This document shows, in pieces, positions 975-49,085 of a DNA stretch of 64,000 nt. Each line of letters opens with the position of its first letter. Position 1 is the first letter of the stretch. Origin of the DNA: Dehalococcoidia bacterium (GTDB lineage: Bacteria; Chloroflexota; Dehalococcoidia; Lucifugimonadales; Australimonadaceae); assembly GCA_965208625.1 (NCBI GenBank), contig OZ242348.1:1233948-1297947 (forward strand), read 5' to 3'. The notes below the pieces were generated by a model. That model searched no databases. It was not told the DNA's origin and was given only the letters and a program-made list of their open reading frames with translations. Position numbers and translations under genes: made by a program.

Positions 975-1107
975 GGGGTGACCTTCCACGTTATTTCAGG
1001 GTGCGTGTGATTCTAACCCAGAAGCATCCTTCCTTCGCTTGACCCGCGCACACGCCCGTCCTACTCTTACGCCACGCAAAATACGCGCACGCGAGGTGAA
1101 TGCACGC

Positions 1108-2367
1108 ATGCTCAGCGTCAAGGCCAACCAGGAACTCACACAGGTAAGCGCAGGCACGCCCGGGGGCGAGCTCATGCGCCGCTACTGGCACCCCATCGCC
1201 GCAACGGCGGAGCTCGACGAGCGTCCCACCAAGCCGGTGCGGCTGCTCGGCGAGGACCTCGTCCTCTACCGCGACAAGTCCGGCACCCTCGGCCTCATCG
1301 AACGCTTCTGCCCCCACCGCCGCGTCGACCTCTCCTACGGCATCCCCGAGGAGCACGGCCTCCGCTGCATGTACCACGGCTGGATGATGGACGAGACCGG
1401 CCAGTGCATCGAGCAGCCCTTCGAGGAGACGGTCCACCCGGACGGACGCTTCAAGGAGAAGGTCAAGATCGCGGGCTACCCCGTCGAGGAACTGGGCGGC
1501 CTCATCTTCGCCTACATGGGCCCGCAGCCCATGCCGCTGCTGCCGCGATGGGAGCAGTTGACATGGGACAACGCCGTGCGCGAGGTCTGCATCTCGGAAC
1601 TGCCGTGCAACTGGCTCCAGTGCCAGGAGAACTCGCTCGACCCCGTCCACAACGAGTGGCTTCACGCCTACTACGGCAACGTCGTCCGCAACGGCGTCCA
1701 CGCGCTGCCCGAACTGCGCGGCACGCACGTCAAGATCGGGTTCGACGTCTTCGAGCACGGCATCATCAAGCGCCGCGTCTTCAAGGGCTACACCGAGGAG
1801 GACGACGACTGGAAGGAAGGCCACCCCATCATGTTCCCGAACATCCTCCTGGTGGGGGACGAGGTGCGCTCCACGTTCCAGTTCCGCGTGCCGGTGGACG
1901 ACGAGCACACCTACCACGTCTCCTACTACGTGTGGCGTCCCGCGCCGGGAGCGCAGGCCCCGCGCCAGGAGAGCGTCCCCTACCGCTACGTGCCGCTGAA
2001 GGACGAGAACGACCGCTACATCAACGACATCCTCTTCAACCAGGACTACCTCGCGTGGGTCACGCAGGGCCCGGTCGCCAAGCGCCACCTGGAGAAACTC
2101 GGCGAGTCCGACAAGGGCATCATCCTCTTCCGCAAACTGCTGCAGGAGCAGGCGAAGCTCGTCGCCGACGGCGGCGACCCGATGAACACGTTCCGCGATC
2201 CCGAGGAGAACCAGGCGATCCACCTGCCGCTCGAGCAGGTGAAGTTCGGCAACCGCCGACGCCCCGGTTACGCTCTCGTCGAGGCCGGAGAGCCCACGGT
2301 GACGGACATCGTGAACGAGACGCTGGAGAGTTGGGAGGGCATGCGCGGCATGCGCCAGCCGGCGTAG
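1108..2367 (+). CDS. Rieske [2Fe-2S] non-heme iron oxygenase, alpha subunit (phthalate-family, class IA-like), paralog 1
   Basis: Rieske motif CPHRRVDLSYG...CMYHGW; mononuclear iron motif NWLQCQENSLDPVHNEWLH. Start moved from 1039 to the ATG at 1108 (MLSVKANQELTQV, GAGGTG 9 nt upstream) to match the N-termini of the other paralogs. Confidence 0.9.
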   Translation: MLSVKANQELTQVSAGTPGGELMRRYWHPIAATAELDERPTKPVRLLGEDLVLYRDKSGTLGLIERFCPHRRVDLSYGIPEEHGLRCMYHGWMMDETGQCIEQPFEETVHPDGRFKEKVKIAGYPVEELGGLIFAYMGPQPMPLLPRWEQLTWDNAVREVCISELPCNWLQCQENSLDPVHNEWLHAYYGNVVRNGVHALPELRGTHVKIGFDVFEHGIIKRRVFKGYTEEDDDWKEGHPIMFPNILLVGDEVRSTFQFRVPVDDEHTYHVSYYVWRPAPGAQAPRQESVPYRYVPLKDENDRYINDILFNQDYLAWVTQGPVAKRHLEKLGESDKGIILFRKLLQEQAKLVADGGDPMNTFRDPEENQAIHLPLEQVKFGNRRRPGYALVEAGEPTVTDIVNETLESWEGMRGMRQPA

Positions 2368-2374
2368 CCGGCGG

Positions 2375-2692
2375 GTGGAGCGTAGCTTGGACGACAAGGC
2401 CAGCCAACCCGAGACCGACGAATCGGATGACCCGTGGGACGAACCCGAGGTACAGGCGAACCTGAACCGAATCTACAGCAGAGGGCTTTCCACAAACTGG
2501 TATCCATTCCGAAAACCTGTGGACCGGGATGCCGTCAATGTTGAGGGGAATCAGGTGCAGCAGGATCCCGCACGGTGGGCGGCAGGAATGTTCAAGCGGC
2601 CATCGACCATTGTCCTGCTGGGAGTACTGGTGGCGGGAGTGCTGGTGGTCGGCGCAGCGTCCATCATTTCGCTACTTCCGCCCAACGCCTGA
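2375..2692 (+). CDS. small acidic protein with a C-terminal transmembrane anchor, hypothetical
   Basis: 105-aa ORF starting 8 nt after the Rieske stop (GTG start). C-terminal hydrophobic helix STIVLLGVLVAGVLVVGAASIISLL. No family recognised. Confidence 0.35.
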   Translation: MERSLDDKASQPETDESDDPWDEPEVQANLNRIYSRGLSTNWYPFRKPVDRDAVNVEGNQVQQDPARWAAGMFKRPSTIVLLGVLVAGVLVVGAASIISLLPPNA

Positions 2693-2806
2693 TCCCGACC
2701 CCCATGGCACGCCCTGCCACATACCCCTTGACGCTTGACGTTGCGCGGCTTGCTATAATCCCGCCACAGGGCAGAGAAACCCACCAGCACAAGGAGAGCA
2801 CATCTC

Positions 2807-4090
2807 ATGCTGACGCAGGAAGCAAACGACCGCTACACCCGTGTAGGCCCCGGCACCCCGATGGGCGAGTTGATGCGACGCTACTGGCACCCCGTCGCCG
2901 CCGTCTCCCAGATGAACGACAAGTGGACGATGAAGGTGCGCCTCCTCGGCGAGGACCTCATCCTCTACAAGGACCGCTCCGGCACCTACGGCCTCATGGA
3001 GCCACACTGCGCCCATCGGCGCATGAACATGATCTACGGCATCCCCGAGGAGCATGGTCTGCGCTGTCCGTACCACGGCTGGCTGTACGACGAGACGGGC
3101 CAGTGCACGGAGCAGCCGTACGAGGAGACGGAGGACCCTGAGGCGCGGTTCAAGGACAAGATCCAGATGAAGGCGTACCCGGTCGAGCAGAAAGCCGGGC
3201 TCCTCTTCGCCTACCTCGGCCCCACTCCCGTGCCGCTGGTCCCCAACTACGACGTCTTCTCGGCGACCGGCGTCTTGCGCGACATCGGCTACGCGATGCT
3301 GCCGTGCAACTGGCTTCAGTGCCAGGAGAACTCGCTGGACCCGGTGCACCTTGAGTGGCTGCACGTCGCGTGGGCCAACTTCATCCGTGAGATGAACGGC
3401 GACGAAGAACGCCGCACCCGCCGCCCACACAAGGTCATCCACTTCGACGCCTTCGAGCACGGCATCATCAAGCGCCGCATCTGGGAGGGCGGTTCCGAAG
3501 AGGACACCGAGTGGAAGGACGGCCACCCCATCGTCTTCCCCAACTACCTCCGGCAGGGCGGCGACGGCTTCAACGTTTCGGACGGGACGTACCGGGGCAG
3601 CTTCTCGATGGGCCCCGCGTTCCAGATACGCACCCCCATCGACGACCACAACACCGCCCACTGGTGGGTCGCCTGCTACCCGATGGTCGAGGGCGACGTC
3701 GAGCAGACGGCGGAGGAGATCCCCTTCTACCTCCCGCCCGTGCCGATGCTGAACGAGAACGACCAGCCCGTCTACCCCGAACTGCGCAGCAACTCCTCGC
3801 AGGACCCGGCGGCGTGGATCACCCAGGGCGGCATCGCGGACCGCACCGGCGAGCACCTGGGCCGCTCCGACAAGGGCATCATCATGTTCCGCCAGATGCT
3901 GGAGGACAACATGCGCATCGTCGAGGACGGCGGCGACCCGATGGAGGTCTACCGCGACCCTGCGGAGAACGTCTACATCCCGTTCATGACGGAGCAGCAC
4001 AACTACGTGGACACCTCCTCGCGGCAGGGGGCGGCGACCATGTACTCGCCGATCCTGGATAGGCGCGAAGCCGCAGCGGCGGCAAAGTAA
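2807..4090 (+). CDS. Rieske [2Fe-2S] non-heme iron oxygenase, alpha subunit, paralog 2
   Basis: MLTQEANDRYTRVGPGTPMGELMRRYWHP; CAHRRMNMIYG...CPYHGW; NWLQCQENSLDPVHLEWLH. AAGGAG upstream of the ATG. Confidence 0.9.
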   Translation: MLTQEANDRYTRVGPGTPMGELMRRYWHPVAAVSQMNDKWTMKVRLLGEDLILYKDRSGTYGLMEPHCAHRRMNMIYGIPEEHGLRCPYHGWLYDETGQCTEQPYEETEDPEARFKDKIQMKAYPVEQKAGLLFAYLGPTPVPLVPNYDVFSATGVLRDIGYAMLPCNWLQCQENSLDPVHLEWLHVAWANFIREMNGDEERRTRRPHKVIHFDAFEHGIIKRRIWEGGSEEDTEWKDGHPIVFPNYLRQGGDGFNVSDGTYRGSFSMGPAFQIRTPIDDHNTAHWWVACYPMVEGDVEQTAEEIPFYLPPVPMLNENDQPVYPELRSNSSQDPAAWITQGGIADRTGEHLGRSDKGIIMFRQMLEDNMRIVEDGGDPMEVYRDPAENVYIPFMTEQHNYVDTSSRQGAATMYSPILDRREAAAAAK

Positions 4091-4100
4091 CGAACGCCTG

Positions 4101-4128
4101 AGAGGGGCAGCCGAACGGCTGCCCCTCT
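4101..4128 (+). terminator. stem-loop, probable intrinsic terminator after Rieske paralog 2
   Basis: Perfect 12-bp stem AGAGGGGCAGCC / GGCTGCCCCTCT with a GAAC loop, 10 nt after the stop, followed by GGTTATCTC. Confidence 0.6.
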
Positions 4129-4230
4129 GGTTATCTCAACCCTACGCCCCTATGATTGCCGAGGAGCGCTCCCGTACCGCTCGTGCGGGGAGTCGTTGCC
4201 GAAACCTGAACACGTGACCGGAGGCGCAAC

Positions 4231-5340
4231 ATGACCCTCATCCTGAACAACGACGACATCGCATCCGTACTGACGATGGAAGAGACGATAGGCGCCCTGC
4301 GGAGCGCGTACGAGGAGCTCGCGCGCACCGAGGCCGTCTGCCGCCCGCGCATCGACATCCGCATCCCCACGTCCGACCCGTCGAAGATGTACCAGTGGGG
4401 CACCATGGAGGGCGGCTCCGCGTCCGGCTACTTCGCCATCCGCATGAAGTCGGACGTCGTCTACGAGCAGGAGTACGGCGGCACGCGCACCCAGGAGAAG
4501 TACTGCCTGCGCCCCGGCCTCTTCTGCGGCCTCATCCTGCTGATGAGCGTCGACAACGGCGAACCCCTCGCCATCATCAACGACGGCTACCTCCAGCACA
4601 TGCGTGTAGGTGCCGACTCCGGCATCGGCGCGGGCTACATGGCGCGCGAGGACGCCTCGGTCGTCGCCATGATCGGCTCCGGCGGCATGGCGCGCTCGCA
4701 CGCCGAGTCGTTCGCCGCCGTGCGCGACATCAAGCGCATCCAGGTCTACAGCCCCACGAAGGCCAACCGCGAGGCCTACGCCGAGGAGATACGCGGCAAG
4801 CTTGGTATCGAGGTCGTCCCGGTGGCGTCCGCGGCGGAGGCGTGCAAGGGCGCGCACATCGTCGCTGGGTGCACTGACGCGGTCGAGCCGGTCATCTTCG
4901 GCAAGGACGTGGAGGACGGCGCGCACATGACCTGCGTCGGCGGCAGCATAGACGGCGAGGCGATGGAGCGCATCGACCGCTCGCTCCGCCTCGGTTCGGC
5001 GCCAGCGCCGGTCGGCATACCGGAGATGCGGCTCCACGACGAGAACATCGCCTACGAGGCCAACGCACCGGACGGCACGCCCGCATCCGCGAGCCAGACG
5101 CGCGAGCGCGCCGGTAGAGGGCACGGCGTCGTTGCCGAGGACCGCGTTGTCTTCCTGGAGGAAGTGCTGCAGGGAGCGCAGGGACGCCCTGGCCCTACCG
5201 CCGTCACCTACTCGGAGCGCGGCAACATCCAGGGCGCGCAGTTCTTCTCTGTCGCGGGCCGCGCCTACGAGCTCGCGAAGGCGAAGGGCCTCGGCCACGA
5301 ACTGCCCACGGAGTGGTTCCTGCAGGACATCCGCGACTAA
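4231..5340 (+). CDS. ornithine cyclodeaminase / mu-crystallin family protein
   Basis: 369 aa. N-terminal LILNNDDIASVLTMEETIGALRSAY and Rossmann loop VVAMIGSGGMARSHAESF are typical of the OCD/mu-crystallin fold. GGAGG RBS. Confidence 0.85.
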   Translation: MTLILNNDDIASVLTMEETIGALRSAYEELARTEAVCRPRIDIRIPTSDPSKMYQWGTMEGGSASGYFAIRMKSDVVYEQEYGGTRTQEKYCLRPGLFCGLILLMSVDNGEPLAIINDGYLQHMRVGADSGIGAGYMAREDASVVAMIGSGGMARSHAESFAAVRDIKRIQVYSPTKANREAYAEEIRGKLGIEVVPVASAAEACKGAHIVAGCTDAVEPVIFGKDVEDGAHMTCVGGSIDGEAMERIDRSLRLGSAPAPVGIPEMRLHDENIAYEANAPDGTPASASQTRERAGRGHGVVAEDRVVFLEEVLQGAQGRPGPTAVTYSERGNIQGAQFFSVAGRAYELAKAKGLGHELPTEWFLQDIRD

Positions 5341-5721: not shown

Positions 5722-6822
5722 ATGGCGCGACGTTTCACCTACGACGACTGGATGGAAGCCCAGGGCATCCCCATCCACCGGGGCTACTACGTGGAAGACC
5801 TCCGCGTCGCCGAGTTGGGGTGGTGGGAGGACCGCCAGGTCGACGCCGCGTTCATGCAGTTGCGCGGCATGGAGGGCGTGTGCGAGGGCCGCATCGAGGA
5901 GATACCGCCCGGCCACTCGCTCCCGCCCCTGAAACTCTCGGTCGACGAGCAGGTCTACGTCCTCGGCGGACGCGGCGTCGCCACCGTCTGGACGGACGAC
6001 TCCCGCCCGAAGAAGACGTTCGAGTGGGCGACCCGCAGCCTCTTCCTCATCCCGCGCAACTCCTACTGCCAGCTCACCAACATGGACGGCAACAACCCGG
6101 CCCGGCTGCTCCACTACAACTACCTCCCCATAGCCATGTCGGCCACGCCGGACCCGGACTTCTTCGTCAACAACCCGTACTCGACGAACTCGTTCCTGCA
6201 CAGCACCGACGAGTTCTACTCCGAGGCGAAGGCCGTTATGGAGGAGGGCGAGGGCGCGTTCGCCGGACGCGGACGCCAGGTCTGGCACGGCAACTTCTTC
6301 CCGGACATGGCCGCCTGGGACAAGCTCGTCCCGTTCTGGGGCCGCGGCGCGGGCGGACACGTCGTCTTCATCCAGTCGCCCGGCTCGGAGATGCACGCGC
6401 ACATGTCCGTCTTCCCCGCACGCACCTACAAGAAGGGCCACCGCCACGGCCCGGGCCGCGTCATCGTCATCCCCGGCGGCGAGGGCTACTCGGTCATGTG
6501 GGAGGAGGGCAAGGAGAAGGTCGTCATCCACTGGCACGAGGCAAGCTGCTTCGTGCCGCCTGACCGCTGGTTTCACCAGCACTTCAACCTCGGAGGGGCC
6601 GACGGGCGCTATCTCGCGCTCCATCCACCGAACCAGTTCATGGGCATGTCCGAGAAGGTGACGGACAGGGGCCGCGACCAGATCGAGTACCCGAACGAGG
6701 ACCCGTGGATACGCGAGTACTTCGAGGACCAGTTGGCCGAACGCGGCATGACGTCCGAGATCCCGGCGGAGGCGTACGAGGACCCCGCGTACGAGTGGGA
6801 CTACTCCAAGTCCTCGGGCTGA
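5722..6822 (+). CDS. bicupin metalloprotein (cupin A), function unknown
   Basis: 366 aa. The C-terminal barrel carries cupin motif 1 GHRHGPGRVIVIPGGEG and motif 2 PPDRWFHQHFN; the N-terminal barrel is degenerate. GGAGG RBS. Paralog at 16296-17390. Confidence 0.8.
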   Translation: MARRFTYDDWMEAQGIPIHRGYYVEDLRVAELGWWEDRQVDAAFMQLRGMEGVCEGRIEEIPPGHSLPPLKLSVDEQVYVLGGRGVATVWTDDSRPKKTFEWATRSLFLIPRNSYCQLTNMDGNNPARLLHYNYLPIAMSATPDPDFFVNNPYSTNSFLHSTDEFYSEAKAVMEEGEGAFAGRGRQVWHGNFFPDMAAWDKLVPFWGRGAGGHVVFIQSPGSEMHAHMSVFPARTYKKGHRHGPGRVIVIPGGEGYSVMWEEGKEKVVIHWHEASCFVPPDRWFHQHFNLGGADGRYLALHPPNQFMGMSEKVTDRGRDQIEYPNEDPWIREYFEDQLAERGMTSEIPAEAYEDPAYEWDYSKSSG

Positions 6823-6861
6823 CGCCGGGGCGCATGCACGAGCGCGATACGGTAAGATAAG

Positions 6862-6889
6862 GCAGCGCCGGGCATAGTCCCGGCGCTGC
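6862..6889 (+). promoter_or_regulatory. strong stem-loop between cupin A and the EutA-like gene (attenuator or processing site candidate)
   Basis: 11-bp perfect stem GCAGCGCCGGG / CCCGGCGCTGC with a 6-nt loop, followed by GCTGCAATCCTTAATCTT. No equivalent in the copy-B intergenic region. Confidence 0.4.
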
Positions 6890-6918
6890 GCTGCAATCCT
6901 TAATCTTGAGGACACCAC

Positions 6919-8442
6919 ATGCACGACGATGACGACCTCGACCATGCACACGTACTCGACCTCCTGAACGACGAAGAAGCCGAGGACATCGAGGGGATCG
7001 AGAAGTTCACGCTCTACAGCGTGGGCATAGACATCGGCTCCTCCACCACCCACACCATCTTCTCCCGCCTGATCCTCCGCCGCGAAGGCGCAGGGCTCTC
7101 CGCCAAGTTCGTCGTCACCAACCGCGACGTACTCTACCGCTCGCCCATCATGCTCACGCCCTACTCCTCCGGCACCGCTATCGACACGGACAGCGTGCAG
7201 CAGTTCATCGAGCGTTCGTACAGCGAAGCAGGCTTCACGCCGGACGACGTGGACACCGGCGCGGTCGTCATCACGGGCGAGGCCCTCAAGAAGGAGAACG
7301 CCCAGCCCATCCTGGAGTACTTCTCGGAGGAGTCCGGACGCTTCATCTGCGCGTCCGCCGGCCCGATGCACGAGGCGCTGCTGGCAGCGTTCGGCTCCGG
7401 CGCGGTCGCCATCTCCAAGAGCAACGCAAACACCGTGCTGGACGTGGACATGGGCGGCGGCACGACGAAGATATCCCTCATCCGAAACGGCGAGATCGCC
7501 CAGATGGTCGCCATCGAGGTCGGCGCGCGCCTCATCGCGTACGACGACGACATGACCATCTCCCGCGTCGAGCAGCCCGCCCGCACCATCCTCGGTTCGC
7601 TCGGCCAGACGGTCGAGGTCGGAGAGAAGCTGACCGACGAGAAGCGCGAGCTCTTCGCCGCGAAGATGACCGACATCCTCTTCGACGCCATCAGCGGCGG
7701 CAAGGTGGACCCGCTCACGGAGTCGCTCCTGCTCACCGACAGCCTCGACACCGCTTCGCTCGAGGACGTCGACCACGTCGTCTTCTCCGGCGGCGTCTCC
7801 GAGTATGTGTACGACCGCACGAACGAATCGTACGGCGACATCGGGCCGTGGTTCGGAAAGATGGTCCGCGAGCGCTGCCAGCAGACGTTGCGCCCGGGGA
7901 TGCTGGTGATGCCCGCCGAGGGCATCCGCGCCACCGTCATCGGCGCGGGCGAGTACACGCTCCAGGCAAGCGGCAGCACCTCCTACATCTCCACGCACGA
8001 CGTGCTGCCGGTGCGCGGCATCCAGGTCGCGCGGGCGTTCATCAACAAGGAGCAGACTGCGGAAGAGATGGAGGCTGCGCTGTCGGCAGGCGTCGGCAAG
8101 TACGACCTGGAGAAGCTCCCGTCCACCATGGCGCTCGCCATGTCCATAGCCGGACAGCCGGACTACTGGTACATCCGCCGGCTGGCCGAGTCCATCATCA
8201 AGACCGTGGACGACGAGCCGCCGGAGGCCCCGGTCTTCGTCGTCGTGGACGTGGACGTGGCCAAGTCGCTCGGCGGCATCATCCGCGAGGAGTTGCACCT
8301 GGACCGCGCCGTCATCGCGATTGACGGCATCGAGGTGGGCGACCTGGACTACGTGGACGTGGGCAAGCCGATGGGCGCAAGCGAGGTCATCCCCGTCACC
8401 GTCAAGTCGCTCGTCTTCTCCATCCGCTCGCAGTCCGGGTAG
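6919..8442 (+). CDS. EutA-like ASKHA-fold ATPase (ethanolamine ammonia-lyase reactivase family homolog), copy A
   Basis: 507 aa. Phosphate-1 loop VGIDIGSSTTHTIFS and phosphate-2 loop LDVDMGGGTTKISL; length and collinearity are typical of EutA. Paralog at 17436-18998. Confidence 0.8.
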   Translation: MHDDDDLDHAHVLDLLNDEEAEDIEGIEKFTLYSVGIDIGSSTTHTIFSRLILRREGAGLSAKFVVTNRDVLYRSPIMLTPYSSGTAIDTDSVQQFIERSYSEAGFTPDDVDTGAVVITGEALKKENAQPILEYFSEESGRFICASAGPMHEALLAAFGSGAVAISKSNANTVLDVDMGGGTTKISLIRNGEIAQMVAIEVGARLIAYDDDMTISRVEQPARTILGSLGQTVEVGEKLTDEKRELFAAKMTDILFDAISGGKVDPLTESLLLTDSLDTASLEDVDHVVFSGGVSEYVYDRTNESYGDIGPWFGKMVRERCQQTLRPGMLVMPAEGIRATVIGAGEYTLQASGSTSYISTHDVLPVRGIQVARAFINKEQTAEEMEAALSAGVGKYDLEKLPSTMALAMSIAGQPDYWYIRRLAESIIKTVDDEPPEAPVFVVVDVDVAKSLGGIIREELHLDRAVIAIDGIEVGDLDYVDVGKPMGASEVIPVTVKSLVFSIRSQSG

Positions 8443-8466: not shown

Positions 8467-8790
8467 ATGCTCATCGCGGCACTCATCTTCGGACTCCTGG
8501 GCGGCATCGTCGGCCTCTTCATCGGAACGCTCATCTTCGTCGGCGACCTCGTGGACTTTGCATTCCGCGGGGGAGACACCAGCACCGCCGGGCTGTTGGT
8601 GCTGTTCTTCGCCCTCCTGGCCATCGTCGGTTCGATCATGTGCCTTAAGAAACCGTGGCAGGCTGCGACGCTCCTGCTCCTCTCCGGCATCGGTTCCATG
8701 GTCGTCATCAACATATTCGGAGCCCCCATCTTCTTCCTCACGCTCCTGGCGGCCTTCTCCGCCATCCGCGGACGCCGGGAGGTCCGCTAA
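8467..8790 (+). CDS. small integral membrane protein (3-4 TM helices)
   Basis: 107 aa, strongly hydrophobic (LIAALIFGLLGGIVGLFIGTLIFVG..., LLVLFFALLAIVGSIM..., LLLLSGIGSMVVINIFGAPIFFLTLLAAF). Starts 24 nt after the EutA-like gene. Confidence 0.6.
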   Translation: MLIAALIFGLLGGIVGLFIGTLIFVGDLVDFAFRGGDTSTAGLLVLFFALLAIVGSIMCLKKPWQAATLLLLSGIGSMVVINIFGAPIFFLTLLAAFSAIRGRREVR

Positions 8791-13572: not shown

Positions 13573-14496
13573 TTAGCGCGCGCCGTCGAAGAACAGCTCG
13601 TCCGGCGTGAAGCGGCGGCCGATGATGCCGAGGTCGGCGGCATAGCGCACGATCGTCTCGATGGCGCGGCGGTTGTTCTCCAGCCCGTTCTCGTGCGGGA
13701 AGAGGCCGTTCTCGCGCAGCCAGCCGACCCGCAGCCCCATGTGCTCGTCGTCGTCGGAGGCGTTGGCGTAGTAGAGACGGCGCGCCTCGTCGCAGGCGTC
13801 CACGACGGCCTGTCCAAATCCGGGGTTGGCGTCGAGCACATCGCTCTTCGCCGCCAGCATCACGTTGACCGGGAAGACGCCGCTCTGCCTGTGGTAGGTC
13901 AGCGCCGCTTCGAGCGGGTCTACGAACAGCGGCACGCGGTTGCCGCCCAGCGGCGGACCTCCACGGTCGAACAGCACCGCGTCCAGTTCGCCGCTATCCA
14001 GTTCCGCGATCTGGTCGCCGCCCTTCGAAATGCTGAAGCGCGGGTCGCGGGGGTAGTCGACGCTCATCAGCGAGTTCGGCTCCGCCTCCACCCAGTGCAC
14101 CTTCGTCAGGTCGAGGCCGTACACGTCCGCGAGCGCGCCGCGCATCCACGTGCCGGGGTTGAACCCCCAACCGCGCACGCCAACGCGCTTGCCCTCAAGG
14201 TCCTTCGGTCCAAGTACACCCGCGTTCACGTTCACCTGCGCCCCGACGTGCGAGAAGGACACGTCCGGGAAGACGGGGATGCCCATGACCGGGCATCCGA
14301 TGTCCCTCGCGATGAGGTAGTTGGTGATGGGCACCACCATGATGTCGTAGGGTGGCTCGGTGAACAGCTTGCCGTAGACCGAGCCGGAGCCCCCCTCCGG
14401 CCAGTCGATCTCAACGTCGAAGCCCTGCACCTTCACGGTGCCGTTCGCCAGGTACTCGGCGGCGTACTCGTGGTCCGCCATCAGTGTTATCGCCAT
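13573..14496 (-). CDS. PBP2-fold protein resembling the 4,5-dihydroxyphthalate decarboxylase (PhtD/Pht5) family
   Basis: 307 aa with no signal peptide. The segment IPVFPDVSFSHVGAQVNVNAGVLGPKDLEGKRVGVRGWGFNPGTWMRGALADVYGLDLTKVHWV follows the pattern I recall for PhtD-like decarboxylases. The specific function is uncertain. GAGGGAG RBS. Confidence 0.55.
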   Translation of the reverse strand: MAITLMADHEYAAEYLANGTVKVQGFDVEIDWPEGGSGSVYGKLFTEPPYDIMVVPITNYLIARDIGCPVMGIPVFPDVSFSHVGAQVNVNAGVLGPKDLEGKRVGVRGWGFNPGTWMRGALADVYGLDLTKVHWVEAEPNSLMSVDYPRDPRFSISKGGDQIAELDSGELDAVLFDRGGPPLGGNRVPLFVDPLEAALTYHRQSGVFPVNVMLAAKSDVLDANPGFGQAVVDACDEARRLYYANASDDDEHMGLRVGWLRENGLFPHENGLENNRRAIETIVRYAADLGIIGRRFTPDELFFDGAR

Positions 14497-14537
14497 CTGT
14501 CTCCCTCGTCCTTATCCGCTCCTTGTGGGAGGGAAGT

Positions 14538-16187
14538 CTATTCCGGTATGGGGTAGCCATCGGAGCGGCGGTCGGTGCCGCCGGTGTGGACGCCCCGTTC
14601 GTGGTCGATGCCTATCAATTGCACTGCGCCGGGCGTGCCGACGCTGGGGTACTGCCTCGTCTTGTGTCCTTTCGCCTCCAAGGCCAGAAGGGTCTCCTCC
14701 GGGATACCGTCCTCGAGGCGGAGCACCATCTCCTCGTCTATCGAGCGTGGATCAGTGCCGGGGAAGTGCGTCCAGCGCGGCGCGTCAGCCGCCTCCTGCA
14801 CGTTCATCCCGTGGTCGATCACGTTGGACACCGCCTGCGCGTTCCACTGCGGCTGGTTGTCGCCACCCGGCGTGCCGCCGACGAGGACGGGCTTGTCGTC
14901 CTTGAACACCATGTAGGCGTGGATGGTGTTGATGGTCTTCTTGCCCGGCGCGATGACGTTCACGTGTCCCTCGTCCAGGTAGAAACCGCGCCCTGCCCTG
15001 TCGTTCAGCAGGATGCCGGTGTCCCCACAAACGAACCCGCTGCCCCAGTACGCCGAGAGGCTGTGGATGAACGATACCGCGTTCCCCTCCTTGTCGATGA
15101 CGTTGAAGTACGACGTGCTCGGCGAGGGCGCGACGGAGTGCGCGAGTTCGCCTGCGGGCACGATGCCCTCCGCGGCGCGTTCCGGGTCGATGCTCTTGAT
15201 ACGCTCGGCGGCGTACTCGGGCGACAGCAGCTCGTCCAGCGGAACGTCGATAAACTCCGGGTCGCCGACGTACGCGAGGCGGTCGGCGAACGCCAGCCGC
15301 TTCGTCTCGACCATCGTGTGGATGTTCTCGATGGTGTTGTGGCCCATCGCAGCGAGGTCGAATCCGTCCAGCAGGCTCAGCAGTTCCAGCGTGAGCATGC
15401 CCTGCGACGGCAGGCCGGTCGCGTAGACCGTGTGGCCGTGGAAGCGGGCCGACGGCGGGTTCTCGTAGACGGTCGTCTCCTGTCCCGCGAGGTCTTCCTC
15501 GTCGATGAGGCCGCCGCCGGCCTCCATCGCCTGCGCTATCTGCTTGGCGATCGAGCCGAGGTAGAACTCGTCCGGCCCATGCTCGGCGATACGGCGCAGC
15601 GACCGCGCGAGGTTCGGCTGCGCGAACACGTCGCCGACCTGGTACGCGGAGCCGTCAGGCTTGATGTACGTCTTCGCGGTCGACTCGTACTTTGCGATCT
15701 TGTCGTAGTGGTCACTGAAGTAGCTGGCGGAGCGCGGCGGCAGCGAGAAGCCCTCCGACGCGAGGCTGATAGCCGGGTCGATGAGCGACGCCAGCGAGCG
15801 CGTCCCGAACCGGTCGACGATCGTCTGCCAGGCGCGCACCTCGCCGGGCACGGCAGGCGTCAGCGGGCCGTCCGCCGGCATCTTCACGTAGCCCAGGTCT
15901 GTGAAGTACTCCCGCCTAGCGCGCATCGGCGCCTTGCCGGAGCCGGATACGCCGTAGAGCGTGCCGGACGCGGCGTGGTAGAGGAGCGCGAATACCTCGC
16001 CCCCGATGCCACACATCATGGGCAACGTGACGGCTTCCGCCGCCGCAACCGCTACCGCGGCGTCGAACGCGTTCCCTCCTTCGCGCAGCACCTGTGCGCC
16101 CGCGGCGCCTGCCAGCGGGGAGGCGGAGCAGACCAGTCCGCGCGTCGTGTATATGGGGCTATGCGACCTGTTGATAACGCTGCTCAC
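14538..16187 (-). CDS. ggt: gamma-glutamyltranspeptidase family protein
   Basis: Autoprocessing threonine context PSTSYFNVIDKEGNAVSF (compare TTHYSVVDKDGNAV in E. coli GGT), plus GGNAFDAAVA and GGTDRRSDG near the C-terminus. Start set at the GTG 16185-16187 (GAGAGGTG upstream); the ORF is open to 16238. Confidence 0.85.
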   Translation of the reverse strand: MSSVINRSHSPIYTTRGLVCSASPLAGAAGAQVLREGGNAFDAAVAVAAAEAVTLPMMCGIGGEVFALLYHAASGTLYGVSGSGKAPMRARREYFTDLGYVKMPADGPLTPAVPGEVRAWQTIVDRFGTRSLASLIDPAISLASEGFSLPPRSASYFSDHYDKIAKYESTAKTYIKPDGSAYQVGDVFAQPNLARSLRRIAEHGPDEFYLGSIAKQIAQAMEAGGGLIDEEDLAGQETTVYENPPSARFHGHTVYATGLPSQGMLTLELLSLLDGFDLAAMGHNTIENIHTMVETKRLAFADRLAYVGDPEFIDVPLDELLSPEYAAERIKSIDPERAAEGIVPAGELAHSVAPSPSTSYFNVIDKEGNAVSFIHSLSAYWGSGFVCGDTGILLNDRAGRGFYLDEGHVNVIAPGKKTINTIHAYMVFKDDKPVLVGGTPGGDNQPQWNAQAVSNVIDHGMNVQEAADAPRWTHFPGTDPRSIDEEMVLRLEDGIPEETLLALEAKGHKTRQYPSVGTPGAVQLIGIDHERGVHTGGTDRRSDGYPIPE

Positions 16188-16295
16188 GATGACACCTCTC
16201 ACACGAGTATCCGGGCAGCGGCATGATATGCTCCGCATCTGTCACCGGCAAACCCACCGCGCCCGGCGCGGCCCACGAAGAAGCGAGGGAGCACC

Positions 16296-17390
16296 ATGGC
16301 TGAAGACTTCACCTACGACCGCTGGATGAATGCACAGGACATACCCGTCCACCGCGGCTACTACATCGAGGACCTCCGCGACATCGAACTCGCCCCGTGG
16401 AGCCTGCGCGAATGCGACGCCGCCTTCATCCAGTTGGAGGGTATGCCTGGCGTGGTGGAGGGACGCGTGCAGGAGGTGCCGCCGGGCGGCTCCATCAAGC
16501 CGTTCAAGCAGGCGATAGACGAGATGGTCTACGTCGCCAGCGGACAGGGCACCGCGTCCGTATGGAGCGGCGACGGCGGCGAACGGCACACGTTCGAGTG
16601 GTCGCCGCGCTCACTGTTCCTGGTCCCGCGCAACTCGTGGGCGCAGTTCAACAACATGCAGGGCGACAGGCCCGCCCGTCTGCTGCACTACAGCTACCTG
16701 CCCATCGCCATGTCCGCCATCCCCAACCCGGACTTCTTCTTCAACAACCCGTATGAGGAAGACGTACTGCGAGGGGCTGACTTCTACTCCGAGGCCGAGG
16801 CAACGACGCAGGAGCACGTGGCCGAGGGCGCAGCGGGACGCACGCTCTGGCTCGGCAACTTCTTCCCGGACATGGGCGTGTGGGACAAGCTGATGCATCG
16901 CCCCGGACGCGGCTCCATGAACCGCTCCGTCTACATGCGCATACCGGGCTCCGAACTGCACGCGCACATGTCGGTCTTTCCCGCCGGGACGTACAAGAAG
17001 GGCCACCGCCACGGGCCGGGCCGCGTCATCGTCATCCCTGGCGGCGAGGGCTACTCCATCATGTGGCAGGAGGGCCAGGAGAAGATGGTCATCCACTGGC
17101 ACGAGGCGAGCTGCTTCGTACCGCCGGACCGCTGGTTCCACCAGCACTTCAACCTGGGCGCCGCCCCCGGACGCTACCTCGCACTGCATCCCCCGAACCA
17201 GTTCATGGGTATGTCCGAGTCCGTGCAGGACCTCTCGCGCGACCAGATCGAGTACCCGGACGAGGAGCCCTGGATACGCGAGTACTTCGAGAACCAACTC
17301 GCCGAGCGCGGCATCGAGTCACAGATGCCGGACGAGGCGTACCGCGACCCCAACTACCGCTGGGACTACACCGGCGTGGAGAATCACTAG
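16296..17390 (+). CDS. bicupin metalloprotein (cupin B), paralog of 5722-6822
   Basis: 364 aa with the same motifs GHRHGPGRVIVIPGGEG and PPDRWFHQHFN. An 87-residue C-terminal tract differs from copy A at only 7 positions (by-eye alignment). GAGGGAG RBS. Confidence 0.8.
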   Translation: MAEDFTYDRWMNAQDIPVHRGYYIEDLRDIELAPWSLRECDAAFIQLEGMPGVVEGRVQEVPPGGSIKPFKQAIDEMVYVASGQGTASVWSGDGGERHTFEWSPRSLFLVPRNSWAQFNNMQGDRPARLLHYSYLPIAMSAIPNPDFFFNNPYEEDVLRGADFYSEAEATTQEHVAEGAAGRTLWLGNFFPDMGVWDKLMHRPGRGSMNRSVYMRIPGSELHAHMSVFPAGTYKKGHRHGPGRVIVIPGGEGYSIMWQEGQEKMVIHWHEASCFVPPDRWFHQHFNLGAAPGRYLALHPPNQFMGMSESVQDLSRDQIEYPDEEPWIREYFENQLAERGIESQMPDEAYRDPNYRWDYTGVENH

Positions 17391-17435
17391 CCCTCCCGCC
17401 CATCGCATAGACAACCGAAAGGAAGACCAGCCCTC

Positions 17436-18998
17436 ATGCACGACGAGCCCTGGGCGCACATCCACGACCCCGACGAAGAGCGCCTCGCCAAACTCAGCAT
17501 CGAACTGAACAACCCCGACCACGACTACTACCACTACGAGGTCATCGAGCTCACGACGGTCGGAATCGACATCGGCTCCTCCACGTCGCACCTCATGTTC
17601 TCCAGCATCACGCTCCAGCGCGTGCAGGAGATGCACTCCAGCCGGTACGTCGTCGTGGACAGGCAGACGCTCTATAAGTCGCCCATCCTGCTCACGCCCT
17701 ACACGCACGACAACCTCATCAACACGGAGCAGCTGGAACGGTTCGTTGCCGAGTCGTACGCGGAGGCGGGATTCGAGCCGCAGGACGTGGACAGCGGCGC
17801 CATCATCCTCACGGGGGAGGCGATCAAGCGCCGCAACGCTCACGCCATAGCCGACATCTTCGCCGATCAGGCGGGCAAGTTCGTCTGCGCCTCCGCAGGT
17901 CACAACCTGGAGTCCGTGCTCGCGGCCAACGGCTCGGGCTCGGTGAAACTGTCGCGCAACCCGCGCCAGACCGTGCTGAACGTGGACATCGGCGGAGGCA
18001 CGACGAAGTTCGCGCTCGTGCACGGCGGACGCATCCAGCACACCGCCGCCCTCAATGTCGGTGGGCGGCTCGTCGCCACGGACGACGACGGCAGCGTGAA
18101 CCGCATCGAGGACGCCGCGCACACCGCCGCAGACAGCATCGGGGTGCCGCTCGCGCTCGGGGAACCCTTGCCGGACGAGCACCGGACCGCCATCGCGGAC
18201 GCGCTCGCCGAGTGCCTGCTCGACGTGATACAGGGCCGCCCGCGCTCCGAGCTGACCCAGGCCCTGCTGCTGACGCCCGACATCCCGCTCGATGCAACCT
18301 TCGACGCGCTCGTCTTCTCCGGTGGCGTCTCGGAATACGTCTACAACAACGAGACGCAGGAGTTCGGCGACCTGGCGGTCGCGCTCGCGGCAGCCGTCCG
18401 GCGCAAGATGGAGGAACACGCCCTGCCGGCGCCGGTGCAGCCCGCGGCGGAGCGTATCCGCGCCACGGTCATCGGCGCGTCGCAGTTCACCGTGCAGCTG
18501 AGCGGGAACACGCTCTCCATATCGGACCCGTCGCTCCTGCCCTACCGGAACGTCCCGGTGCTCATCTCGCGGCTGCCGGAAGACCACGAAGTGCAGCCAG
18601 AGGAGGTCGCCGCGCTTGTTGGAGAGGCGTTCGAAAGGCAGGACCTCGTGGAAGGCGAGCAGCAGGTCGCGCTCGCGTTCGAGTGGGACGGCCTGCCGCG
18701 CTACGCCCAGATACGGAAGATCGCGGACGGGATCGTGGCCGCGGCGCCACGCTCGCTGGCGAGCGGCGCGCCGCTCATGCTCGTCTTCACCGGCGACTTC
18801 GCCAAGCTCATCGGCGAGACCATCACGAAGGACATGGGCATCCCCAACCCGGTCATCTCCATCGACAACCTCTTCCTGCAGGAGTTCGATTTCATCGACA
18901 TCGGAGAGATGATCTACCCGGCGCGCGTCGTGCCGGTGGTCGTGAAGTCACTGCTCTTCCCGGAGATCGAAAAGCAGACCGCCGAGGTGCTGGACTAG
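17436..18998 (+). CDS. EutA-like ASKHA-fold ATPase, copy B
   Basis: 520 aa. VGIDIGSSTSHLMFS and LNVDIGGGTTKFAL loops. Collinear with copy A, with roughly half the residues identical by eye. Confidence 0.8.
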   Translation: MHDEPWAHIHDPDEERLAKLSIELNNPDHDYYHYEVIELTTVGIDIGSSTSHLMFSSITLQRVQEMHSSRYVVVDRQTLYKSPILLTPYTHDNLINTEQLERFVAESYAEAGFEPQDVDSGAIILTGEAIKRRNAHAIADIFADQAGKFVCASAGHNLESVLAANGSGSVKLSRNPRQTVLNVDIGGGTTKFALVHGGRIQHTAALNVGGRLVATDDDGSVNRIEDAAHTAADSIGVPLALGEPLPDEHRTAIADALAECLLDVIQGRPRSELTQALLLTPDIPLDATFDALVFSGGVSEYVYNNETQEFGDLAVALAAAVRRKMEEHALPAPVQPAAERIRATVIGASQFTVQLSGNTLSISDPSLLPYRNVPVLISRLPEDHEVQPEEVAALVGEAFERQDLVEGEQQVALAFEWDGLPRYAQIRKIADGIVAAAPRSLASGAPLMLVFTGDFAKLIGETITKDMGIPNPVISIDNLFLQEFDFIDIGEMIYPARVVPVVVKSLLFPEIEKQTAEVLD

Positions 18999-19032
18999 CG
19001 TCCCGGCGGTGGGGACGCGACCGTACCGACGC

Positions 19033-49075: not shown

Positions 49076-49085
49076 GGTCGTCCTC

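What the first reader, a model, noticed from the sequence alone, without database searches (positions are those of the whole stretch)
16296..18998. Second copy of the bicupin + EutA-like cassette, with a near-invariant C-terminal cupin barrel
The same gene pair recurs 10 kb away, in the same order and orientation with a 45-nt gap. By-eye alignment shows that most cupin residues are identical between the copies. An 87-residue tract spanning the metal-binding barrel (HAHMSVFPA...NQFMGMSE; about 6394-6654 versus 16959-17219) differs at only 7 positions, and the DNA there is also highly similar. The N-terminal barrel and the EutA-like partners are much more divergent (roughly half identical). Retention of both genes together after duplication argues that they work as a unit. 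The uneven conservation suggests either strong constraint on the catalytic barrel or localised gene conversion. The divergent N-terminal barrel and ATPase could carry the specificity. Copy B lacks the small membrane gene and the intergenic hairpin of copy A.
Basis: partly seen in the sequence, partly recalled or inferred. Interest (0 to 1): 0.7.

Follow-up and report, generated by a model that had tools for sequence, protein, structure and literature searches.

The report
Paired bicupin and EutA-like ATPase cassettes
A Dehalococcoidia genome carries two old copies of a widespread but unstudied gene pair, a metal-binding bicupin enzyme followed by a EutA-family ATPase with a histidine-rich tail, and the near-identical stretch between the two bicupins reflects strong selection plus an ancient gene conversion.

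Summary
Bicupin and EutA-like genes recur at 5722-8442 and 16296-18998. The bicupins are 68% identical and the ATPases 40%. The 87-residue tract differs at exactly 7 positions.

The tract is also the most conserved part of the whole family, so constraint is real. Region-specific trees, quartet counts and a relative-rate check add an old gene conversion of about 270 bp (codons 225-315). It happened in the ancestor of the window's species group. A recent conversion is excluded because synonymous sites are saturated.

The cassettes are not a recent duplication of a unit:
- Outside the tract the bicupins are only 57% identical, no closer than to bicupins of other phyla.
- The two ATPases belong to subfamilies almost as far apart as each is from E. 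coli EutA.
- The flanking DNA shares no similarity.

The pairing itself is real. It is adjacent and co-oriented in 33 of 33 cases, across about five phyla, including cultured Rhizobiales. Neither window cassette nor any annotated related locus lies near ethanolamine lyase genes.

New here: nearly all bicupin-linked EutA-likes have an N-terminal His/Asp/Glu-rich tail (MHD...HxH) that E. coli EutA lacks. My inferred function is an ATP-driven metal-centre activase for a gentisate-dioxygenase-like bicupin. This is untested.

The parts
5722..6822 (+). Bicupin A (366 aa), a distant member of the gentisate-1,2-dioxygenase superfamily. The N-terminal barrel lacks metal ligands. The C-terminal barrel carries H227, H240, H242, H285 and H287.
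   Evidence: ORF with GC3 0.94. 68% identical to copy B. Family alignments. The AlphaFold2 bicupin model was made for the paralogue, copy B.
6394..6654 (+). Near-invariant C-terminal barrel tract of copy A (aa 225-311). It is the core of the stretch inferred to have been homogenised with copy B (aa 225-315).
   Evidence: 80/87 identical to copy B. No copy-type-specific sites in aa 225-315. Tree topology switches here.
6862..6889 (+). Intergenic GC-rich hairpin between cupin A and EutA-like A (11-bp stem, 6-nt loop, no clear U-tract on the + strand).
   Evidence: Hairpins of unrelated sequence occupy the same intergenic position in L008 and L005.
6919..8442 (+). EutA-like ASKHA ATPase A (507 aa, A-type subfamily).
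   Evidence: Pfam PF06277 E 4e-125. Below all NCBIfam EutA equivalog cut-offs. ASKHA motifs conserved.
6919..7008 (+). N-terminal His/Asp/Glu-rich extension of EutA-like A (MHDDDDLDHAHVLD...). It lies outside the EutA domain model.
   Evidence: The Pfam match starts at residue 31. Motif conserved across loci. Absent from E. coli EutA.
8467..8790 (+). Small hydrophobic ORF (107 aa, probably membrane-embedded) after EutA-like A. An ORF in the same position follows EutA-like A only in the closest relatives, and its homology was not compared.
   Evidence: an ORF follows EutA-like A in L001, L006 and L008, but not in L003 or L005. No family match.
16296..17390 (+). Bicupin B (364 aa). The metal site is H224, H237, H239, H282 and H284 in the C-terminal barrel.
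   Evidence: Cupin_2, 27.9 bits; AlphaFold2 pLDDT 81, pTM 0.85.
16959..17219 (+). Near-invariant C-terminal barrel tract of copy B (aa 222-308).
17436..18998 (+). EutA-like ASKHA ATPase B (520 aa, B-type subfamily).
   Evidence: Pfam PF06277 E 2e-127. 99% identical protein cluster P0121, named 'EutA' by automatic annotation. Trees.
17436..17546 (+). N-terminal His/Asp/Glu-rich extension of EutA-like B (MHDEPWAHIHDPDEE...).
   Evidence: The Pfam match starts at residue 38. H8 and H10 invariant in alignment A3. 114/118 B-type homologues have HxH in the extension.
1039..5340 (+). Upstream context of cassette A: two LigXa-type Rieske oxygenase genes (1039-2367, 2807-4090) and an ornithine-cyclodeaminase/mu-crystallin family gene (4231-5340).
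   Evidence: Rieske genes occur in 28 of 79 cupin loci and the cyclodeaminase-family gene in 9 loci.
13573..16238 (-). Context upstream of cassette B, on the opposite strand: an NMT1-like solute-binding protein (13573-14496) and a gamma-glutamyltransferase (14538-16238). The transferase is transcribed divergently from cupin B across 57 bp.
   Evidence: Synteny conserved in L001, L004, L005, L006 and L008.

Best explanation
The window holds two anciently diverged versions of a conserved two-gene module. Gene 1 is a bicupin distantly related to gentisate 1,2-dioxygenases. Its N-terminal barrel has lost the metal ligands. Its C-terminal barrel keeps an invariant His-rich site (HRH...H.H, with conserved Lys and Arg residues). 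Gene 2 is a EutA-family ASKHA ATPase with a 30-45 residue His/Asp/Glu-rich N-terminal tail (MHD...HxH) that E. coli EutA lacks.

Shown:
1. The pairing is conserved across phyla.
2. The C-terminal barrel is under family-wide purifying selection.
3. In the ancestor of the window's species group, about 270 bp (codons 225-315) of the two cupin paralogues were homogenised, most simply by gene conversion. This was long enough ago that synonymous sites have since saturated.
4. The cassettes are not a recent duplication of a unit.

Inferred:
- The ATPase acts on the cupin protein itself, as EutA acts on ethanolamine ammonia-lyase.
- It uses ATP and its His-rich tail to load, exchange or re-activate the metal centre of the C-terminal barrel.
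- The cupin is a catabolic, probably oxygen-dependent, enzyme whose variable N-terminal half sets specificity.
For: Pairing:
- Same-strand adjacency in 33/33 cases, with gaps of 0-310 nt and one overlapping gene pair (L081).
- Cupin-EutA-cupin triads occur in Binatia or 'delta' genomes and in soil Chloroflexota.
- Pairwise distances of partnered genes correlate (Mantel r 0.62, 0/2000 permutations).

Constraint:
- The tract has pN 0.04 against 0.27-0.29 elsewhere.
- Mean pairwise identity in 71 independent family members is 0.71 in the tract against 0.48-0.55 elsewhere.
- H224, H237, H239, H282, H284, K234, K235 and R293 are invariant even in the 33%-identical clade.

Old conversion:
- In residues 1-224, all A copies group together (99%) and all B copies group together (100%).
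- In residues 225-366, A and B of the window's species group cluster together (84%, and 87% for the tract alone).
- A and B differ at 7 tract positions, while orthologues differ at 16-19.
- There is no rate slowdown. The window's tract differs from outgroups at 19-24 of 87 positions, as the orthologues do.
- There are 29 copy-type-specific sites in residues 34-224 and none in 225-315.

Not a unit duplication.

Activase idea:
- Full-length EutA-domain homology with intact ASKHA motifs.
- No eutBC in the window or in 9 annotated related loci.
- The tail is present in 116/118 B-type homologues, and 114/118 have HxH. It is present in nearly all cupin-linked proteins of both types.
- One ATPase is often flanked by two cupins, and cupins can occur without a nearby ATPase. 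That pattern fits an accessory factor.
- An N-terminal M-H-E motif is the nickel site of the metallochaperone HypA (PMC5557546).

Link to gentisate dioxygenases: colinear BLASTP to the window's own gentisate-dioxygenase-like gene (E 1e-5, HRH...GEGYSI...H.H aligned), plus a PDB profile hit to 3BU7.
Against: - There is no experimental datum for any family member. No paper mentioning the pair was found.
- The ATPases diverge much faster (39%) than the barrel they would service.
- A tail rich in His, Asp and Glu could have other roles.
- Many cupin loci have no EutA-like gene within 10 kb.
- Fold searches gave only generic bicupin and ASKHA matches.
- The conversion inference rests on few informative sites. 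Four shared-derived sites lie in residues 225-366, but three such sites also lie in 1-224. The trees are neighbour-joining only.
- Metal identity, substrate and oxygen dependence are unknown. Some hosts are labelled as anaerobes' relatives.
Confidence: 0.5

Rival explanations
1. The EutA-like protein is a metabolic enzyme and not a protein-directed activase. On this reading it is an ASKHA small-molecule kinase, or an ATP-dependent activating enzyme. Its product or substrate is handled by the cupin, which acts as an isomerase, dioxygenase or decarboxylase. The pair would then be two consecutive pathway steps.
For: - The ASKHA fold is shared with sugar and acid kinases and with hydantoinases. 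Weak Hydantoinase_A, Ppx-GppA and FtsA hits were found, and the Foldseek hits are Ppx/GppA, levoglucosan kinase and the like.
- The invariant Lys and Arg residues in the cupin barrel could bind a phosphate or carboxylate.
- The contexts are catabolic, with TctABC, ABC or NMT1 transporters, a ThDP enzyme and a beta-hydroxyacid dehydrogenase.
- Both genes also occur alone.
Against: - The only characterised family member, EutA, acts on a protein and not on a metabolite. This rests on my own knowledge of the literature; E. coli annotation calls it a reactivase.
- No other neighbouring gene is constant, so no conserved pathway surrounds the pair.
- The His/acidic tail is hard to rationalise for a kinase.
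- The arrangement of one ATPase between two cupins suggests a complex.
Confidence: 0.28
2. The near-invariant tract reflects purifying selection alone. No gene conversion ever occurred, and the apparent clustering of A and B in the C-terminal third is homoplasy at a few permitted sites.
For: - The tract is the most conserved segment family-wide.
- pS in the tract (0.39) equals pS elsewhere (0.41-0.42).
- Shared-derived sites also occur in the N-terminal region (56, 66, 127).
- Only 0-4 informative sites per quartet lie in the tract.
Against: - A and B differ at 7 of 87 tract positions. Their orthologues differ at 16-19, although residues 1-224 show that the duplication is older than that speciation. 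P(<=7 | p = 0.20) = 0.002.
- The window lineage shows no slowdown relative to outgroups.
- Support for the concerted topology is 84-87% bootstrap, against 0% in the N-terminal region.
- pS is already saturated between close orthologues (pN 0.05, pS 0.37), so it cannot argue against an old event.
Confidence: 0.15
3. A recent segmental duplication of the whole bicupin + ATPase unit within this genome, followed by rapid divergence of the ATPase and the N-terminal barrel.
For: The gene order, orientation and short spacer are the same, and the cupins are 68% identical overall.
Against: - Both cassettes, about 9-10 kb apart, are already present in relatives whose orthologues are only 70-75% identical (L003, L005).
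- EutA-like A and B are never sisters (0/100). Each is closer to proteins of other phyla.
- Cupin residues 1-224 are 57% identical, the same as to cupins of other phyla.
- There is no nucleotide similarity outside the coding regions.
Confidence: 0.03
4. The ATPases are genuine EutA reactivases of a B12-dependent ethanolamine ammonia-lyase encoded elsewhere. On this reading, adjacency to cupins is incidental.
For: Automatic annotations call them 'ethanolamine ammonia-lyase reactivating factor EutA', and they match Pfam EutA over the full length.
Against: - Their scores are far below all four NCBIfam EutA equivalog cut-offs (346-365 bits against 598).
- They are 32-36% identical to E. coli EutA.
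- No eutB or eutC lies in the window or in any related annotated locus.
- The cupin adjacency is conserved across phyla.
- The extra N-terminal tail is absent from E. coli EutA and lies outside the Pfam and NCBIfam EutA models.
Confidence: 0.03

Closest known systems
EutA, reactivating factor of adenosylcobalamin-dependent ethanolamine ammonia-lyase (Pfam PF06277; E. coli b2451)
   Same: Full-length homology to the EutA domain (E 1e-125) and conserved ASKHA nucleotide-binding motifs. By analogy, an ATPase that services a partner enzyme encoded next to it.
   Different: - 32-36% identity to E. coli EutA, and below all NCBIfam EutA cut-offs.
- The neighbour is a bicupin, not eutBC, and there is no eut operon or microcompartment genes.
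- It has an additional His/Asp/Glu-rich N-terminal extension of 30-45 residues.
- The client would be a metal centre and not cobalamin (inference).
Gentisate 1,2-dioxygenase-type bicupins (TIGR02272; e.g. PDB 3BU7). The window has its own at 48020-49075(-).
   Same: Two cupin barrels. A colinear alignment (22% identity, E 1e-5) in which the HRH...GEGYSI...H.H motif of the C-terminal barrel aligns. Frequent neighbours are aromatic-catabolism genes: LigXa-type Rieske, Amidohydro_2, LigB-like and UbiD-like.
   Different: - No hit to the gentisate dioxygenase model.
- The N-terminal barrel, which is catalytic in classical gentisate dioxygenases (my own knowledge), has K, D/E and Q in place of the His ligands.
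- The C-terminal barrel is far more conserved than is usual for ring-cleavage enzymes.
- It is paired with an ATPase.
Metallochaperones with N-terminal or His-rich metal-binding motifs (HypA 'MHE' nickel site; His-rich tails of UreE and HypB)
   Same: The N-terminus begins M-H-D/E in both window proteins and in 61/118 homologues. It is followed by HxH and acidic residues. HypA's invariant MHE motif binds nickel (PMC5557546). Nucleotide hydrolysis is coupled to metal delivery in those systems (my own knowledge).
   Different: The fold is unrelated (ASKHA versus the HypA zinc-ribbon or G3E GTPases). Metal binding has not been shown here, and the client is a cupin and not a hydrogenase or urease.
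XylT-type ferredoxins that reactivate catechol 2,3-dioxygenase
   Same: The concept is the same: a dedicated accessory protein, encoded beside a non-haem-iron ring-cleavage enzyme, restores its metal centre (my own knowledge).
   Different: XylT is a small [2Fe-2S] reductant that uses no ATP. The EutA-likes have a single conserved Cys, so an iron-sulfur mechanism is unlikely.
Concerted evolution of bacterial paralogues by short-tract gene conversion (e.g. tuf genes)
   Same: Homogenisation is limited to the most conserved few hundred base pairs of two paralogues in one genome, giving a local tree that groups genes by genome and not by gene type.
   Different: It appears to be a single old event and not an ongoing process. 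Seven substitutions and saturated synonymous sites have accumulated since.

Membership tests
EutA (ethanolamine ammonia-lyase reactivase) | Full-length match to Pfam PF06277 | tested here: met
   A: E 4.4e-125, residues 31-500. B: E 2.2e-127, residues 38-508.
EutA (ethanolamine ammonia-lyase reactivase) | Score above an NCBIfam EutA equivalog cut-off (NF007991-NF007994) | tested here: not met
   The best scores are 365 and 346 bits against a cut-off of 598. The other models fall further short.
EutA (ethanolamine ammonia-lyase reactivase) | Genomic association with eutB/eutC or a eut operon | tested here: not met
   Most ORFs of the 64-kb window were scanned and none is EutB or EutC. The annotated related loci L080-L088 have none either. 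The rest of the genome could not be searched.
EutA (ethanolamine ammonia-lyase reactivase) | ASKHA nucleotide-binding motifs intact | tested here: met
   DxGSST, DxGGGT(T)K, FSGGVxE and IRATVxGA are invariant in 38 proteins.
EutA (ethanolamine ammonia-lyase reactivase) | ATP-dependent exchange of damaged cobalamin on the lyase | not testable with these tools
   Needs biochemistry.
Bicupin / gentisate 1,2-dioxygenase family | Two cupin beta-barrels in one chain | tested here: met
   AlphaFold2 model of copy B (pLDDT 81, pTM 0.85) with two strand-rich halves. The top Foldseek hits are all bicupins (MncA, OxdC, vicilins), E about 1e-14 but TM only about 0.47.
Bicupin / gentisate 1,2-dioxygenase family | Match to the curated gentisate 1,2-dioxygenase model TIGR02272 | tested here: not met
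   No hit for A or B. The window's other bicupin, 48020-49075(-), scores 304.6 bits, itself below the 442 cut-off.
Bicupin / gentisate 1,2-dioxygenase family | HRH...H three-His metal motif | tested here: met
   Present and invariant in the C-terminal barrel only (H237, H239, H282/H284 in copy B). The N-terminal barrel has K71, D75, E76 and Q117 instead.
Bicupin / gentisate 1,2-dioxygenase family | Fe(II)-dependent aromatic ring cleavage | not testable with these tools
   Only context is available: Rieske, Amidohydro_2, LigB-like and UbiD-like neighbours.
Gene conversion between paralogues | Region-limited switch of tree topology from grouping by gene type to grouping by genome | tested here: met
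   Residues 1-224: A clade 99%, B clade 100%, window-group A+B 0%. Residues 225-366: window-group A+B 84%. Tract alone: 87%.
Gene conversion between paralogues | Paralogue divergence in the tract lower than orthologue divergence, without a lineage slowdown | tested here: met
   7 differences against 16-19. Distance to outgroups is equal, 19-24 of 87.
Gene conversion between paralogues | Reduced synonymous divergence in the tract (a recent event) | tested here: not met
   pS is 0.39 in the tract and 0.41 outside it. Synonymous sites are already saturated between close orthologues.
Segmental duplication of a two-gene unit | Congruent cupin and ATPase trees, with A and B as sisters | tested here: not met
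   EutA-like A+B monophyly 0/100. The deep B-type split is supported 100/100. Cupin A+B monophyly has only 5% support in residues 1-224.
Segmental duplication of a two-gene unit | Similarity extends into the intergenic and flanking DNA | tested here: not met
   blastn hits lie only inside the two coding regions.
N-terminal-motif metallochaperones (HypA-like MHE site) | Protein begins Met-His-Asp/Glu, with nearby His residues | tested here: met
   A begins MHDDDDLDHAH and B begins MHDEPWAHIHD. 61/118 homologues start MH[DE] and 114/118 have HxH.
N-terminal-motif metallochaperones (HypA-like MHE site) | Demonstrated metal binding and transfer to a client | not testable with these tools
   Needs ICP-MS and titration experiments.
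ATP-dependent iron-sulfur activators (HgdC / BcrAD type) | Conserved Cys residues able to ligate a bridging [4Fe-4S] cluster | tested here: not met
   Only one conserved Cys (C151) in 38 sequences.

The most novel reading that the evidence does not exclude
Tail-bearing EutA-family ATPases are a previously unrecognised class of ATP-dependent maturases or reactivases for the metal centre of a widespread bicupin enzyme family. On this reading, the 'reactivase' principle known for B12 enzymes has been re-used for a mononuclear metal site. The N-terminal MHD...HxH tail would act as the metal-handling element. The system would serve catabolic bicupins in Chloroflexota (SAR202-like Dehalococcoidia), Binatia and Rhizobiales. 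In some lineages it would even be transcribed with the ATP synthase operon.
Probability: 0.3. Interest if true: 0.75.

Novelty: new variant of a known kind. Interest (0 to 1): 0.5.

Why it matters
- If the ATPase services the cupin's metal site, the role of the EutA family extends beyond B12 enzymes. It would define a new route of metalloenzyme maturation or repair.
- It would also give a function to thousands of proteins now mislabelled 'ethanolamine ammonia-lyase reactivating factor' or 'cupin domain-containing protein'. Searches found at least 3,900 cupin clusters and about 8,000 EutA-like clusters.
- The hosts include SAR202-type Dehalococcoidia and Binatia, groups linked to the turnover of recalcitrant organic matter.
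- The module also exists in cultured Sinorhizobium and Phyllobacterium, so it can be tested directly.
- On the evolutionary side, this locus is a clean example of selection and short-tract gene conversion acting on the same segment. It also shows that saturated synonymous sites can hide an old conversion.

Tried and rejected
- **Synonymous-site test.** dN/dS and same-codon analysis first suggested 'no gene conversion'. I withdrew that reading after finding that pS is already about 0.37 between close orthologues. The test only excludes a recent event.
- **Slowdown hypothesis.** The idea that the window lineage evolved slowly in the tract was rejected by the relative-rate check.
- **Iron-sulfur activator.** A HgdC/BcrAD-type mechanism was rejected because only one Cys is conserved.
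- **Structure and fold searches.**
  - PDB sequence searches found nothing close.
  - Foldseek of both AlphaFold2 models returned only generic bicupin and ASKHA folds with low TM scores.
- **Literature.** Searches for any description of a cupin/EutA pair found nothing. The SAR202 papers do not mention cupins or ethanolamine.
- **Family scans.** Pfam and NCBIfam gave no specific family for the cupins or the small ORF.
- **Conserved pathway.** Neighbour clustering did not yield one. The neighbours vary: Rieske, Amidohydro_2, ornithine-cyclodeaminase family, TctABC, ABC, NMT1, a ThDP enzyme and the atp operon.
- **Fusion proteins.** No cupin-EutA fusion appeared among the listed homologues.
- **Hairpin as terminator.** The copy A hairpin meets the terminator pattern only on the minus strand. 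I do not call it a terminator.

Full report
**1.

High-GC3 ORFs give cupin A at 5722-6822(+) and EutA-like A at 6919-8442(+). They give cupin B at 16296-17390(+) and EutA-like B at 17436-18998(+), with a 45-nt spacer. BLASTP gives 68% identity for the cupins and 40% for the ATPases. No column shuffle out of 20,000 reaches that value. Elsewhere the cupins are 55-64% identical. The copy A hairpin (6862-6889) and the small hydrophobic ORF (8467-8790) exist, and copy B has no counterpart. Nucleotide similarity between the two loci is restricted to the coding regions.

**2. What the genes are**

- **ATPases.** Both match Pfam EutA over their full length (E about 1e-125). Both fall far below the four NCBIfam EutA equivalog cut-offs. 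They are only 32-36% identical to E. coli EutA. The ASKHA nucleotide-binding motifs are invariant, and only one Cys is conserved.
- **Cupins.** They have almost no family signal (Cupin_2 at the threshold for B, nothing for A) and no close solved structure. An AlphaFold2 model of copy B (pLDDT 81) is a bicupin. Foldseek returns only generic bicupins at TM about 0.47.
- **Link to gentisate dioxygenases.** A colinear BLASTP alignment to the window's own gentisate-dioxygenase-like gene (48020-49075, minus strand; TIGR02272 at 305 bits) aligns the motif HRH...GEGYSI...H.H of the C-terminal barrels (E 1e-5). The cupins are therefore distant relatives of gentisate 1,2-dioxygenases.
- **Metal site.** Only the C-terminal barrel keeps His ligands. 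H224, H237, H239, H282 and H284 (copy B numbering), with K234, K235 and R293, are invariant even in a 33%-identical sister clade. The N-terminal barrel has K, D/E and Q at the ligand positions.

**3. Source and wider distribution**

The window comes from a Dehalococcoidia metagenome-assembled genome (99% identity to DAOUHT010000046).

- The cupin family is large, with at least 3,943 protein clusters and at least 590 hits among species-representative genomes.
- It occurs in Chloroflexota, Binatia, Thermodesulfobacteriota or 'delta' genomes, Alphaproteobacteria, a Verrucomicrobiia genome and Micromonospora.
- In 79 fetched loci, about 31 carry a EutA-like gene.
- All 33 cupin/EutA-like adjacencies are co-oriented, with gaps of 0-310 nt. 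One pair overlaps.
- Going the other way, 4 of 5 EutA-like proteins sampled by their own homology have a cupin directly upstream. The fifth stands alone next to gltX but keeps the family's N-terminal tail.
- Common architectures are cupin-EutA and cupin-EutA-cupin.
- No annotated related locus contains eutB or eutC.
- Cultured Rhizobiales carry the pair on megaplasmids. In Phyllobacterium zundukense the order is TctABC, ThDP enzyme, NAD(P) oxidoreductase, cupin, 'EutA', LysR. Three Sinorhizobium species also have a cupin match, and the S. terangae locus fetched has a cupin followed by a EutA-like gene.
- Other recurrent neighbours are LigXa-type Rieske oxygenases (28 loci, often directly upstream of cupins that lack a EutA-like), Amidohydro_2, LigB-like, UbiD-like, GFO/IDH/MocA and ornithine-cyclodeaminase-family genes, plus several transporter types.

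The setting is catabolic but no pathway is constant.

**4. Why the cupin is unevenly conserved**

Two causes apply.

*Purifying selection.*
- The tract has pN 0.04 against 0.27-0.29 elsewhere.
- In 71 family members unrelated to the window lineage it is also the most conserved segment (0.71 against 0.48-0.55).
- The seven A/B differences fall at columns that vary family-wide.

*An old homogenisation.* I first read equal pS (0.39 against 0.41) as excluding conversion. However, pS is already 0.37 between close orthologues with pN 0.05, so it only excludes a recent event. I then used A and B orthologues from eight related genomes.

| Region (residues) | All A copies group | All B copies group | A+B of the window's species group (W, L001, L002, L006, L008) |
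|---|---|---|---|
| 1-224 | 99% | 100% | 0% |
| 225-366 | 5% | 12% | 84% |
| Tract 225-311 | 0% | 0% | 87% |

(Bootstrap support.)

- Copy-type-specific sites number 29 in residues 34-224, none in 225-315, and 3 in 316-349.
- In the tract, A and B differ at 7 positions, whereas orthologues (window versus L005) differ at 16-19. The duplication is nevertheless older than that speciation.
- The window lineage is not slow. Its tract differs from outgroups at 19-24 of 87 positions, like the other lineages.
- Quartet site patterns shift from about 30:1 in favour of orthology to 0-2:1-4 in the tract (Fisher p 0.0009 and 0.005 in two of three quartets).

The simplest reading is one gene-conversion event of about 270 bp before the window/L008 split. 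Seven substitutions followed it.

Caveats: there are few informative sites, the trees are neighbour-joining only, and three shared-derived sites also lie in the N-terminal region.

**5. Not a recent duplication of a unit**

- EutA-like A and B are never sisters (0/100).
- A is 56-67% identical to Binatia and alphaproteobacterial proteins. B is 47-50% identical to soil Chloroflexota and Rhizobiales proteins, and the deep split has 100/100 support.
- In those other phyla the cupin upstream of a B-type ATPase belongs to the divergent clade, which is 33-36% identical to cupin B.
- In residues 1-224, cupins A and B are 57% identical, no more than to cupins of other phyla. The full-length 68% is inflated by the C-terminal region.
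- Both cassettes, with the same intervening genes, already exist in relatives at about 70% identity.
- Partnered genes still co-diverge broadly (Mantel r 0.62, 0/2000).

**6. A new feature bearing on mechanism**

Nearly every cupin-linked EutA-like has a 30-45 residue N-terminal extension rich in His, Asp and Glu. It usually starts MH[DE] and contains HxH. Examples are MHDDDDLDHAH in A, MHDEPWAHIHDPDEE in B, and MHDDIYDHDHPDNF in 'delta' genomes.

- Among 118 B-type homologues, 116 have the extension and 114 have HxH, with a mean of 4.4 His per extension.
- It lies outside the Pfam and NCBIfam EutA models, whose matches start at residue 31 or 38.
- It is absent from E. coli EutA.
- An N-terminal M-H-E motif is the nickel site of the metallochaperone HypA (PMC5557546).

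**7. Most likely mechanism (inferred, confidence about 0.35)**

The ATPase acts on the cupin protein, as EutA acts on its lyase. It would use ATP and the His-rich tail to load, exchange or restore the metal of the invariant C-terminal barrel. The variable N-terminal half, and perhaps the ATPase subtype, would carry specificity.

The main rival (about 0.28) is that the ATPase is a small-molecule kinase or activating enzyme in the same pathway. Substrate, metal and oxygen dependence are unknown.

**8. Novelty and verdict**

I found no description of this pair, and databases label the ATPases as EutA. The finding as written, a second copy with a conserved barrel, is ordinary paralogy made more interesting by a demonstrable old conversion tract. 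The module itself is a credible new variant of the reactivase theme, and it can be tested in cultured Rhizobiales.

- Interest: 0.5.
- Evolutionary statements: confidence about 0.8.
- Mechanism: confidence about 0.35.

Noticed in passing
L009-L014, L016, L028, L080 (e.g. L080:4109-13825): In at least 9 Binatia, 'delta' or Thermodesulfobacteriota genomes the cupin-EutA-like(-cupin) module directly follows atpC of the F1Fo ATP synthase operon on the same strand. The gap is 14-38 nt in 7 of 9 loci, so the module appears to be part of the atp operon. No explanation.
   Followed up: partly
window 48020-49946 (-): A canonical gentisate/5-aminosalicylate 1,2-dioxygenase-like bicupin (48020-49075; TIGR02272 at 305 bits) sits next to a fumarylacetoacetate-hydrolase-family gene (49086-49946). 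This is a conventional gentisate-type ring-cleavage pair, distinct from the cupins of the finding.
   Followed up: partly
window 1039-2367, 2807-4090, 28418-29695, 35852-37084, 43156-44523(-), 56861-58129: Six paralogous LigXa_C-type Rieske oxygenase genes lie in one 64-kb window, and no adjacent reductase gene was identified. The same Rieske family is the commonest non-EutA neighbour of the cupin family elsewhere.
   Followed up: partly
L085:1264-7590: One tightly packed operon holds a LigXa-type Rieske gene, an unknown 405-aa protein, two bicupins and a EutA-like gene, downstream of an ABC permease. Some neighbouring genes overlap. This links the Rieske-associated and EutA-associated contexts.
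   Followed up: no
window 6862-6889; L008:1217-1360; L005:3294-3413: The cupin A / EutA-like A intergenic region carries a strong GC-rich hairpin in each lineage, but the sequences are unrelated. The stem is 11 bp in the window and about 13-14 bp in L008 and L005 (z -3.5 and -2.6). B cassettes have none. The hairpin might set the cupin:ATPase expression ratio.
   Followed up: partly
L088 (NZ_CP104971.1 460885-479934) and L089 (Sinorhizobium terangae pCB3126_1): Cultured Rhizobiales megaplasmids carry a divergent-clade cupin (annotated as hypothetical) followed by a B-type 'EutA'. In Phyllobacterium they come after TctABC, a ThDP-binding enzyme and an NAD(P) oxidoreductase, with a LysR regulator downstream. 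This is a tractable system for experiments.
   Followed up: partly
window 10159-11457 (+): A class-III aminotransferase between the cassettes scores just above the glutamate-1-semialdehyde 2,1-aminomutase subfamily cut-off (402 against 398 bits). It lies in a catabolic context and not in a haem-synthesis context.
   Followed up: no
window 18990-19040: A stable hairpin (-27.6 kcal/mol, z -2.9) spans the stop codon of EutA-like B and the end of the convergent ORF 19033-19494(-). It may be a bidirectional terminator without a T-run.
   Followed up: no
window 33509-34851 (+): Small ([2Fe-2S], Fer2_2) and medium (FAD_binding_5/CO_deh_flav_C) subunits of a molybdenum hydroxylase follow a zinc alcohol dehydrogenase. 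Large subunits of the same enzyme type recur near cupins in other loci (cluster 19).
   Followed up: no
cupin position 270 in copy A numbering (window 6529-6531; copy B 17094-17096): Both paralogues of the window's species group have His in the motif I-H-W-H-E. All other family members examined have Pro there. This shared derived change sits next to the conserved H272/E273.
   Followed up: partly
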